Of a stretch of 25,801 nucleotides of DNA, positions 12,789 through 13,127 are shown in pieces (the stretch's first letter is position 1; each line of letters starts with the position of its first letter). The notes under the pieces were generated by a model. That model made no database searches, was not told the origin of the DNA, and saw only the letters and a program-made list of their open reading frames with translations. The position numbers were made by a program, and so were the translations under genes. The stretch comes from a virus (lineage: Duplodnaviria > Heunggongvirae > Uroviricota > Caudoviricetes), in IMG/VR virus record IMGVR_UViG_2693429554_000019. The stretch is one strand, 5' to 3'.

Positions 12789-13082
12789 ATGAAAACCATA
12801 TACAACTATGACTTTCAATACTTACGTAAAGGGGATACGCGACCTCTTGATGATGGAGAGATTGTAAGATGTTCTTCGGAAGACAATCCACTCCTGATGC
12901 TTCCGAATGTTGGGGATTATGTCGACATTACCAACAATAAAGACCGTGAGTCGTTTGGTGGGAAAGTGAAATCAAGGTTATTCAGATATACTCGAGTAAG
13001 TGAAGACCATGTTATTTGCAACATCAATATTGTTGTTGAAGAGGTTGAAGACTCGGTATGGGGCACACTTGTTAAAGAGTAA
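12789..13082 (+). CDS. Hypothetical protein (97 aa) between cos and the portal gene
   Basis: ATG with AAGGATAG upstream; acidic, protein-like composition; followed immediately by a strong hairpin terminator. Confidence 0.45.
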   Translation: MKTIYNYDFQYLRKGDTRPLDDGEIVRCSSEDNPLLMLPNVGDYVDITNNKDRESFGGKVKSRLFRYTRVSEDHVICNINIVVEEVEDSVWGTLVKE

Positions 13083-13083
13083 A

Positions 13084-13113
13084 CAAAGCGCCTGCAGTAG
13101 CAGGCGCTTTCTG
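13084..13113. terminator. Bidirectional Rho-independent terminator
   Basis: Perfect 9-bp stem AGCGCCTGC (13087-13095) / GCAGGCGCT (13100-13108) with 4-nt loop AGTA, flanked by AAACAAA on the left and TTT on the right. Lies between convergent genes ending at 13082 (+) and 13128 (-). Confidence 0.65.
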
Positions 13114-13127
13114 AGCCTAATCTATAT

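What the first reader, a model, noticed from the sequence alone, without database searches (positions are those of the whole stretch)
12789..13115. Small acidic ORF with strong terminator between cos and the portal gene
P2-type phages normally have little between cos and the 3' end of Q. Here a 97-aa ORF with an RBS is followed by a perfect 9-bp-stem hairpin that is flanked by A and T runs and so can terminate both convergent transcripts. The region is AT-rich, so this looks like a second small cargo slot.
Basis: seen in the sequence. Interest (0 to 1): 0.4.

Follow-up and report, generated by a model that had tools for sequence, protein, structure and literature searches.

The report
Small cargo gene beside phage cos
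A real, well-conserved 97-residue gene of unknown function, with its own terminator, sits as swappable cargo between the packaging site and the portal gene of a 186/P2-like prophage; that position is already known as a hotspot for accessory and anti-phage genes, so the finding is ordinary in kind although the protein is uncharacterised.

Summary
ORF 12789-13082 (+) encodes 97 aa (pI 4.85) behind an AAGGA ribosome-binding site. A perfect 11-bp hairpin follows at 13085-13110, 18 nt beyond the convergent portal gene. GC is 39% against 51% for the window.

It is a genuine gene: full-length match to PHROG 12676 (E 7.6e-49), dN/dS 0.10-0.18, and 216 clusters across Proteobacteria. No Pfam, NCBIfam or PADLOC match was found. 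The confident AF2 model has no convincing fold neighbour.

The segment 12645-13136 is a cassette that replaces the about 155-bp cos-portal spacer, including its tQ/tW-type terminator, found in P2, 186 and empty-slot relatives. Only 12 of 5426 complete E. coli genomes carry the gene. Other relatives hold TIR, DUF4145, SieB-family, DUF262 or other genes in the same slot.

The "cargo slot" reading is therefore right but not new. This is the cos-proximal part of the published gpA-gpQ hotspot, and the cos-Q position was proposed as an insertion hotspot in the 1990s.

Homologues also lie beside terminase, portal or capsid genes in unrelated phages. They occur as integron cassettes in Alishewanella and Desulfuromonas and as a syntenic chromosomal gene in Kushneria. 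Function is inferred only: most likely a stand-alone binding protein for exclusion or defence (about 0.3).

The parts
12465..12644 (.). Conserved cos block of the phage backbone, forming the left recombination flank of the slot. The cohesive-end sequence GGCGTGGCGGGGATACGAG lies at 12591-12609.
   Evidence: About 87-90% identical in relatives whatever the slot holds. It aligns with the annotated cosL of P2 and 186. The record of Salmonella phage SEN8 ends at the position equivalent to 12590.
12645..13136 (.). Variable cassette segment: upstream region, ORF and terminator. It replaces the backbone cos-portal spacer.
   Evidence: Homology to empty-slot (L003, L012) and differently filled (L002, L011) relatives stops at 12644 and resumes at 13137. 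GC is 39.4%.
12645..12788 (+). Untranslated upstream region. It holds only a weak candidate sigma-70 promoter: TTGCAA 12681-12686, a 17-nt spacer, then AATGAT 12704-12709 (8 of 12 matches).
   Evidence: No + strand promoter passed the scan. The candidate is conserved in the 87% allele L015, but upstream regions of more distant alleles are unrelated.
12778..12782 (+). Shine-Dalgarno sequence AAGGA, 6 nt upstream of the ATG.
   Evidence: AGGA or GGAG occupies the same place in most homologous loci.
12789..13082 (+). 97-aa protein-coding gene, a member of PHROG 12676. It is a stand-alone, beta-rich, mildly acidic protein.
   Evidence: E 7.6e-49, 97/97 positions; pLDDT 87.9; dN/dS 0.10-0.18.
13085..13110 (.). 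Perfect 11-bp hairpin between the convergent ORF and portal gene. It occupies the position of the tQ/tW terminator of the portal-terminase operon, and probably also stops ORF transcription.
   Evidence: The related hairpin GCCTGC....GCAGGC follows the 87% and 68% alleles. P2 tQ and 186 tW are annotated at the equivalent place. The empty slot has a different hairpin.
13128..14156 (-). Portal gene (P2 Q / 186 W homologue), forming the right recombination flank of the slot.
   Evidence: The last three codons fall inside the variable segment.

Best explanation
The feature is a self-contained accessory-gene cassette (a "moron"). It consists of an AT-rich upstream region, an RBS, a 97-aa ORF and a terminator hairpin. 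It lies in the cos-to-portal part of the known gpA-gpQ cargo hotspot of a 186/P2-like prophage.

**Shown**
- The cassette replaces the about 155-bp backbone spacer together with its tQ/tW-type terminator.
- Its own hairpin now sits where the portal-terminase late operon must terminate.
- The conserved cos block and the portal gene flank it on either side.
- Alternative cargo, or nothing, occupies the same interval in close relatives.
- The gene is under purifying selection.
- It also occurs beside packaging or head genes of unrelated phages, as an integron cassette, and as a fixed chromosomal gene in one genus. It is never fused to another domain and has no constant partner gene.

**Inferred**
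- The cassette is exchanged by homologous recombination between the two conserved flanks.
- The product is a cytoplasmic protein of about 11 kDa with no recognisable enzymatic domain, so it most likely acts stoichiometrically by binding a protein or nucleic acid.
- Other occupants of this slot include TIR, DUF4145, SieB-family and DUF262-domain proteins, and the hotspot has a published defence yield. The most likely role is therefore a host- or prophage-beneficial function such as superinfection exclusion or anti-phage defence (about 0.3).

Confidence in the cassette and cargo anatomy is about 0.85. The overall figure given for this explanation also covers the functional inference.
For: - **Presence and absence at one site:** 1277 of 5426 E. 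coli genomes match the flanks, but only 10-12 carry the ORF.
- **Breakpoints:** homology breaks at 12644 and 13137.
- **Empty slot:** it has its own hairpin terminator. P2 and 186 annotate tQ and tW there.
- **Other cargo in the slot:** a 120-aa ORF with no Pfam match, a DUF4145-domain protein, a TIR-domain protein, a SieB-family protein, a DUF262-domain protein and three hypothetical genes.
- **Divergent alleles in near-identical backbones:** ORF alleles of 68% identity sit in backbones whose portal and gpA are 97-99% identical.
- **Recent spread:** the ORF is 99-100% identical across E. coli, while the flanks are 90-97% identical.
- **Cassette signature:** deviant composition. The ORF, SD and downstream hairpin recur together in the closest alleles; more distant stand-alone copies mostly have an unrelated downstream hairpin.
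- **Real gene:**
- **Stand-alone:** family members are nearly all 90-100 aa, and the longer ones look mis-called.
- **Other contexts:** terminase large subunit-ORF-portal; between the small and large terminase subunit genes, and beside the capsid gene; integron cassettes; syntenic in Kushneria.
- **Literature on the hotspot:** PMC9122126, PMC9519451, PMC5694545.
Against: - No promoter meeting the scan criteria lies upstream on the + strand, so expression from the lysogen is unproven.
- No PADLOC, Pfam or NCBIfam match, so the defence role rests on association only.
- In Comamonas-type phages and in L026/L060 the gene is co-directional with late packaging genes. That suggests lytic-cycle expression and fits an anti-defence or assembly-related role as well.
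- The + strand U-tract of the hairpin is weak.
- The protein was not found in the supplementary tables of PMC9122126 by accession or by sequence.
Confidence: 0.5

Rival explanations
1. Anti-defence or counter-defence protein. A small acidic protein made during lytic growth would bind and neutralise a host immune component, for example one that senses portal, terminase or capsid proteins, or would sequester a signalling molecule.
For: - It is small, acidic and stand-alone, with no enzymatic domain.
- It is co-directional and tightly packed inside late packaging operons in Comamonas-type phages (15-20 nt gaps) and downstream of the portal gene in L026/L060.
- It recurs next to terminase, portal or capsid genes in four backbones.
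Against: - It also occurs as an integron cassette in bacterial chromosomes and as a vertically retained chromosomal gene in four Kushneria species. An anti-defence gene would not obviously benefit the host there.
- In the window it is convergent with the late operon, not part of it.
- It matches no known anti-defence family, and BFVD neighbours are marginal (best E 1.2e-3).
Confidence: 0.2
2. Packaging- or head-associated accessory factor. The protein would interact with portal, terminase or cos DNA and modulate DNA packaging, for example by favouring the phage over P4-like satellites that share cos.
For: It lies about 180 nt from cos and next to the portal gene here. It is adjacent to packaging or head genes in unrelated phages.
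Against: - It is present in only about 1% of E. coli P2-like prophages, so it is dispensable.
- It occurs with no phage genes nearby in integrons, in Kushneria, and in Pseudomonas, Pantoea and Brevundimonas islands.
- The position bias can be explained by insertion-tolerant sites near genome termini.
Confidence: 0.1
3. Host-physiology gene carried passively. This would be a small regulator or ligand-binding beta-barrel protein with no role in phage-phage conflict, hitch-hiking on mobile elements.
For: - It is fixed and syntenic in Kushneria between housekeeping-type genes.
- It is widely distributed at 45-60% identity across alpha-, beta-, gamma- and deltaproteobacteria.
- One UniRef entry names a homologue "PilZ domain-containing".
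Against: - No PilZ Pfam match in any of 57 members.
- Most contexts are mobile or variable: prophages, integrons, and neighbours that are IS elements or recombinases.
Confidence: 0.2
4. Not a gene. The ORF would be a chance reading frame inside cis-acting packaging sequence, or a decaying remnant.
For: No strong promoter was detected. The gene is rare among E. coli prophages.
Against: - Full-length PHROG match at E 7.6e-49.
- 90 clusters in one search and 216 in another, with invariant motifs.
- dN/dS 0.10-0.18.
- Confident structure model.
- It lies outside the conserved cos block.
Confidence: 0.02

Closest known systems
P2 defence hotspot between replication gene A and portal gene Q (Rousset et al. 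2022, PMC9122126; "hotspot #1" of Vassallo et al. 2022, PMC9519451; old and tin in P2)
   Same: The location lies between the replication endonuclease and the portal gene, next to cos. Content is highly variable among close relatives, composition is AT-rich, and neighbouring occupants are defence-type genes.
   Different: This gene lies on the portal side of cos, whereas old and tin lie on the A side. It matches no known defence family and has no demonstrated phenotype. It was not found in the supplementary files of PMC9122126.
cos-to-Q insertion hotspot of P2-like phages, e.g. the ctx cytotoxin gene of Pseudomonas phage phiCTX and ORF1-4 of Ralstonia phage phiRSY1 (as described in PMC5694545, citing Dodd & Egan 1996 and Nakayama et al. 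1999)
   Same: It is the same map position, between cosL and the gpQ homologue, holding foreign genes that do not disturb phage functions.
   Different: The cargo is different and unrelated. Here a single 97-aa protein of unknown function is convergent with Q and supplies the operon terminator.
Morons of lambdoid phages (concept of Hendrix and colleagues; from general knowledge)
   Same: It is an extra gene present in some genomes and absent from close relatives at the same junction. Its base composition deviates and it has its own terminator.
   Different: An own promoter is not established, and prophage expression is untested.
tQ (P2) and tW (186) rho-independent terminators of the portal-terminase operon
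   Same: It is a GC-rich hairpin a few nucleotides past the portal stop codon, with a U-tract on the portal-operon strand.
   Different: The sequence is unrelated to the backbone hairpin of empty-slot relatives. It arrived with the cassette and also abuts the stop codon of the convergent ORF.
Integron gene cassettes (sedentary chromosomal integrons; bioRxiv 10.1101/2024.07.02.601686; cassette sites reported in phages, PMC9892861)
   Same: Homologues in Alishewanella and Desulfuromonas are single-ORF cassettes bounded by attC-type sites, with IS110-family insertions alongside.
   Different: A simple core-site pattern scan found no attC in or around the window copy, but that scan also missed the control attC sites in L007 and L009. 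By eye, the hairpin is a plain perfect palindrome without AAC/GTT cores.

Membership tests
PHROG 12676 (phage protein family, unknown function) | Significant full-length match to the family profile | tested here: met
   E 7.6e-49, 164.7 bits, residues 1-97 on profile positions 1-97 of 97.
Moron / accessory cassette | Present in some genomes and absent from close relatives at the same junction | tested here: met
   12 of 5426 E. coli genomes carry it, against 1277-1289 with the flanks. Breakpoints are at 12644 and 13137.
Moron / accessory cassette | Base composition deviating from the backbone | tested here: met
   GC 39.4% against 51.0% for the window; GC3 0.38 against 0.63 for the portal gene.
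Moron / accessory cassette | Own terminator | tested here: met
   11-bp hairpin starting 2 nt after the stop codon. A related hairpin follows the 87% and 68% alleles. The + strand U-tract is weak.
Moron / accessory cassette | Own promoter, with expression from the prophage | tested here: inconclusive
   No + strand site passed the scan. Only an 8-of-12 candidate lies at 12681-12709, conserved in L015 alone. Expression cannot be tested with these tools.
P2 gpA-gpQ hotspot cargo | Location between the replication endonuclease gene and the portal gene, adjacent to cos | tested here: met
   gpA is at 5083-7497 (Pfam Phage_GPA), cos at 12591-12609 and the portal gene at 13128-14156.
Known anti-phage defence systems | Match to a model of a known or candidate defence protein | tested here: not met
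   No PADLOC family at E <= 1. No Pfam or NCBIfam family either.
Known anti-phage defence systems | Reduces plating of phages when expressed | not testable with these tools
   This needs a plaque assay.
Integron gene cassette | attC recombination site at the 3' end, with R''/R' cores and an imperfect palindrome | tested here: inconclusive
   **Window copy:** the core-site pattern scan of 12600-13200 found nothing, but it also missed the control attC sites in L007 and L009. By eye, the hairpin has no AAC/GTT cores.

**Homologues:** L007, L008 and L009 do have attC junctions.
Bidirectional intrinsic terminator | GC-rich hairpin followed by a U-tract on both strands | tested here: inconclusive
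   The hairpin is strong on both strands. The U-tract criterion is met on the - strand only; the + strand tail is UUUCUGAGCC.
Cradle-loop barrels / double-psi beta-barrel (GD-box) | Significant sequence or fold similarity to members | tested here: inconclusive
PilZ domain (name given to homologue P0058 by UniRef) | Match to the PilZ profile or motifs | tested here: not met
   None of 57 family members matches Pfam PilZ at E <= 1.
cos packaging signal | Belongs to the conserved cis-acting cos block | tested here: not met
   The conserved block ends at 12644 and the ORF starts at 12789. The ORF shows coding conservation.

The most novel reading that the evidence does not exclude
The PHROG 12676 family would be a new minimal, single-protein effector of phage-host or phage-phage conflict, acting either in defence or in anti-defence. 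It would have a fold not represented among solved structures. It would shuttle between integron cassettes and insertion sites in the packaging modules of unrelated phages. The recurrent placement next to cos, terminase and portal would then reflect a functional link to DNA packaging or to its sensing by immune systems, rather than mere insertion tolerance.
Probability: 0.2. Interest if true: 0.6.

Novelty: new member of a known kind. Interest (0 to 1): 0.3.

Why it matters
The slot and the cassette logic are already known, so the value lies in the protein. It is a compact, strongly conserved, uncharacterised family that appears in three kinds of "gene bank": the P2-like hotspot, other phages' late regions, and integron cassettes. 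Hotspot cargo has given a high yield of new anti-phage systems when tested (PMC9122126, PMC9519451). A 97-aa stand-alone gene is cheap to test. A positive result would add a minimal effector with an apparently new fold. A negative one would help calibrate how much hotspot cargo is unrelated to defence.

Tried and rejected
- **Family and defence libraries:** Pfam, NCBIfam and PADLOC scans of the protein gave nothing. Scanning all 57 aligned members against Pfam gave only scattered weak barrel-type hits: HAS-barrel, OB-fold and Enc34 ssDNA-binding, best E 0.011.
- **Deposited phages:** tblastn against 50,697 deposited phage genomes found no match, although IMG/VR holds 18 loci.
- **Sequence similarity to solved structures:** the hit to designed double-psi barrels is confined to the RPxDxG...VGDYVxV motif and is not individually significant. 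I kept it as a lead only.
- **Domain fusions:** the longer hits are mis-called starts or chimeras.
- **Partner genes:** none is conserved across contexts.
- **attC in the window:** the core-site scan found none, but it also failed on the L007 and L009 controls. Short resemblances to cassette boundaries remain anecdotal: GTTAGTT lies 30 nt upstream of the ATG in L016, and the window's TAAACAAAGCGCCTGCAG resembles L007's CTAACAAAGCATTGCAG.
- **P2 late-promoter element:** the upstream dyad is TGT-N14-ACA (12679-12698), not the TGT-N12-ACA I recall for Ogr/B-dependent promoters. I rejected it.
- **RNA genes:** Rfam and tRNA scans of the window found nothing.
- **Published tables:** searching the supplementary files of PMC9122126 by accession and by peptide found nothing.

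Full report
**1. The observation**

The window is IMG/VR contig IMGVR_UViG_2693429677_000020. It is a 186/P2-like prophage with these parts:

| Coordinates | Feature |
|---|---|
| 1-1209 (-) | integrase |
| 1449-2105 (-) | CI repressor |
| 2423-2941 | CII / CP76 |
| 4169-5086 | Dam methylase |
| 5083-7497 | replication gene A |
| 7778-8083 | DinI-like gene |
| 8380-12203 | cargo block |
| 12591-12609 | cos |
| 12789-13082 (+) | the ORF in question |
| 13128-14156 (-) | portal gene |
| 14153-15919 (-) | terminase ATPase gene |
| from 16062 | capsid genes |

- The ORF is exactly as described: 12789-13082 on the + strand, 97 aa.
- AAGGA lies at 12778-12782, 6 nt before the ATG.
- The protein has pI 4.85, with 18 acidic and 13 basic residues.
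- The hairpin is AAAGCGCCTGC-AGTA-GCAGGCGCTTT at 13085-13110. It is a perfect 11-bp stem rather than 9 bp.
- Folding energy is -20.9 kcal/mol on the + strand and -23.6 kcal/mol on the - strand. None of 200 shuffles folds as well.
- The terminator scan accepts it on the - strand only, where the tail is TTTGTTTACTCTT. On the + strand the U-run is short.
- GC is 39.4% for the ORF and for 12621-13127, against 51.0% for the window. GC3 is 0.38 against 0.63 for the portal gene.

**2. It is a real gene**

- The protein matches PHROG 12676 over its whole length (E 7.6e-49).
- A word-indexed search found 90 clusters, from Escherichia, Salmonella, Citrobacter and Serratia out to Sphingomonadales, Desulfuromonas, Alishewanella, Comamonas, Agrobacterium and Kushneria.
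- An exhaustive profile search found 216 clusters at E <= 1e-3. Almost all are 90-100 aa. The few longer ones look like mis-called starts or chimeras.
- The alignment has invariant P39, V41, G42, D43, G58, V60, L64, F65, E84 and E85. The recurring motifs are LPNVGDYV, GKVKSRLFxY and CxINIVVEE.
- Pairwise dN/dS is 0.10-0.18.
- Sources call every member "hypothetical". One UniRef entry says "PilZ domain-containing", but no Pfam PilZ match supports that name.

**3. What the protein looks like**

- AlphaFold2 with the 57-sequence alignment gives a confident model: pLDDT 87.9, pTM 0.79.
- The model has strands at 2-12, 44-47, 56-71 and 74-84, and a short C-terminal helix.
- A profile search of PDB sequences hits only designed symmetric double-psi beta-barrels, through the stretch RPxDxG...VGDYVxV.
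- That hit has a whole-sequence E of 5e-4, but the individual stretches are not significant. I treat it as a lead for a GD-box, half-barrel-like element and not as membership.
- Pfam, NCBIfam and PADLOC give nothing.

**4. Anatomy of the slot**

- Against relatives, homology holds through the cos block 12465-12644, is lost, and resumes at 13137, three codons inside the portal gene.
- Empty-slot relatives (E. coli 873.10 and Yersinia phage MLG42) have about 125-160 bp there. That spacer holds a different hairpin, AGCGCCCCGCAG...CTGCTGGGGCGCT, preceded by an A-run.
- The reference records of P2 and 186 annotate cos at 1-19, a terminator (tQ or tW) at 160-187, and the portal stop codon at 187 or 196.
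- The window's 492-bp segment has therefore replaced the backbone spacer including its terminator. Its own hairpin now occupies the tQ/tW position, 18 nt past the portal stop.
- This explains why the U-tract is good on the portal-operon strand.

**5. How common the gene is, and what else sits there**

- The flanks occur in 1277-1289 of 5426 complete E. coli genomes.
- The ORF occurs in 12 of them. Ten copies are 99-100% identical in nucleotide sequence and two are a 69% allele.
- Upstream cargo differs among carriers. In strain 2014C-3011 it is a P-loop NTPase. Strain GPEC1222 shares the window's left flank at 100% identity but lacks the ORF.
- The two sides of cos therefore assort independently.

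Other occupants of the cos-portal interval:

| Occupant |
|---|
| 120-aa ORF co-directional with the portal gene, upstream of the retained backbone terminator; no Pfam match |
| DUF4145-domain protein |
| TIR-domain protein |
| SieB-family protein plus a hypothetical gene |
| 1.8-kb DUF262-domain gene |
| Three hypothetical genes in ATCC 8739 |

- In an evenly spaced sample of 60 records, about three quarters had cos and portal more than about 1.1 kb apart.
- In this lineage the slot is therefore usually filled.

**6. Relation to the literature**

- Rousset et al. define the hotspot as everything between gpA and gpQ, "adjacent to the cos site" (PMC9122126).
- Vassallo et al. call the same interval P2 defence hotspot #1 (PMC9519451).
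[quoted passage not shown] It cites Dodd & Egan 1996 and Nakayama et al. 1999, and notes that the phiCTX cytotoxin gene lies there (PMC5694545).
The slot is not new.

**7. Where else the family lives**

- In IMG/VR, homologues of 55-100% identity sit between cos and the portal gene, convergent with it, in nine P2-like contigs.
- Those nine include backbones whose portal and gpA proteins are 97-99% identical to the window's while the ORF is only 68% identical.
- In a Halomonas P2-like prophage the gene is co-directional, just downstream of the portal gene (L026/L060).
- In Serratia marcescens it abuts a truncated portal gene in a 186-like remnant.
- In Comamonas-type prophages it lies between the terminase large subunit and portal genes, co-directional, with gaps of 15-20 nt.
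- In L024 it lies between the small and large terminase subunit genes, on the opposite strand. In L030 it lies beside the major head protein gene.
- In Desulfuromonas and Alishewanella it is an integron cassette. The Alishewanella locus has at least 13 attC-type junction repeats in 16 kb, and the gene is bounded by two of them. IS110-family transposases sit alongside in both loci.
- Proteins at least 90% identical occur in Alishewanella, Idiomarinaceae, Halomonas and Photobacterium.
- In four Kushneria species the gene is syntenic between housekeeping-type genes.
- In Pseudomonas, Pantoea and Brevundimonas only the gene itself is shared between loci.
- No partner gene is conserved anywhere.

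**8. Interpretation**

*Shown.* This is a self-contained accessory cassette in a known hotspot. Conserved cos and portal sequences flank it, and it supplies the operon terminator it displaced.

*Inferred.* The cassette is exchanged by homologous recombination between those flanks. The protein has no enzymatic signature and is always stand-alone, so a stoichiometric binding mechanism is most likely.

Estimated likelihood of each role:

| Role | Estimate | Main grounds |
|---|---|---|
| Exclusion or defence | about 0.3 | Company kept in the slot; presence in integrons and in a fixed chromosomal locus points to host benefit |
| Anti-defence | about 0.2 | Late-operon placement in other phages |
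| Host-physiology function | about 0.2 | Kushneria synteny; broad distribution |
| Packaging-related | about 0.1 | Recurrent position beside packaging genes |
| Not a gene | about 0.02 | Effectively excluded by conservation |

The recurrent placement beside packaging genes is unexplained. It could reflect function, or simply insertion-tolerant sites near genome termini.

**9. Verdict**

The feature is a new member of a known kind. Interest is modest. The protein is an inexpensive, reasonable candidate for a phenotype screen, but nothing here would surprise a specialist in P2-like phages.

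Noticed in passing
window 8380-12203: The cargo on the gpA side of cos holds an IS110-family transposase at 8380-9657 (Pfam DEDD_Tnp_IS110 plus Transposase_20). It also holds three hypothetical genes: 154 aa (phrog_19013), 241 aa (phrog_31894) and 269 aa (no hit). None matches PADLOC or NCBIfam.
   Followed up: partly
L003 5356-6057; L020 about 8627-9268; many records: Some P2-like relatives carry an extra gene between the portal and terminase genes. RefSeq annotates it as "terminase large subunit domain-containing protein". It is about 32-33% identical to the N-terminal part of the terminase ATPase. Its role is unknown.
   Followed up: no
window 12685-12714 (- strand) and 12679-12698: A promoter-like site on the - strand (TCAACA, 18-nt spacer, TATATT) points from the cassette's upstream region towards cos and the leftward cargo genes. 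It overlaps an imperfect dyad, TGTTGCAATATATTGGCACA, that is conserved in L015.
   Followed up: no
L009 1-16303 (Alishewanella) and L007 7960-8350 (Desulfuromonas): Both loci are integron cassette arrays. L009 has at least 13 attC-like junctions and also carries TIR_2, AbiTii and DUF4917 genes. In both loci an IS110-family transposase sits directly upstream of the ORF97-homologue cassette.
   Followed up: partly
L058, L059, L061, L062 (Kushneria spp.), gene at 5001-5288: The homologue is syntenic in four Kushneria species, with flanks 80-83% identical. It lies between a nitroreductase gene and a zinc alcohol dehydrogenase gene, so in this genus it is a vertically retained chromosomal gene.
   Followed up: partly
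L004-L006 (Serratia marcescens), 2000-9000: This is a 186-like prophage remnant (cI, cII, fil, DUF5347..., ORF97 homologue, truncated portal gene) next to yebY-copDC. Alternative cargo sits beside cI in different strains: GmrSD_N plus HEPN in some, AAA_15 ATPase plus a 387-aa protein in others.
   Followed up: no
L016 about 4510-4520; window 13080-13100 versus L007 8300-8320: There are short resemblances to integron cassette boundaries at P2-like copies. GTTAGTT lies 30 nt upstream of the ATG in L016, as it does in the Alishewanella cassette. TAAACAAAGCGCCTGCAG after the stop codon in the window resembles CTAACAAAGCATTGCAG in the Desulfuromonas attC. This is too short to establish common origin. 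A core-site scan found no attC in the window but also missed the controls.
   Followed up: partly
E. coli records: The ORF is 99-100% identical in nucleotide sequence in ten E. coli genomes. The adjacent cos block is only about 90% identical to the window in at least one of them (L001). This suggests recent spread of the cassette among diverged backbones.
   Followed up: partly
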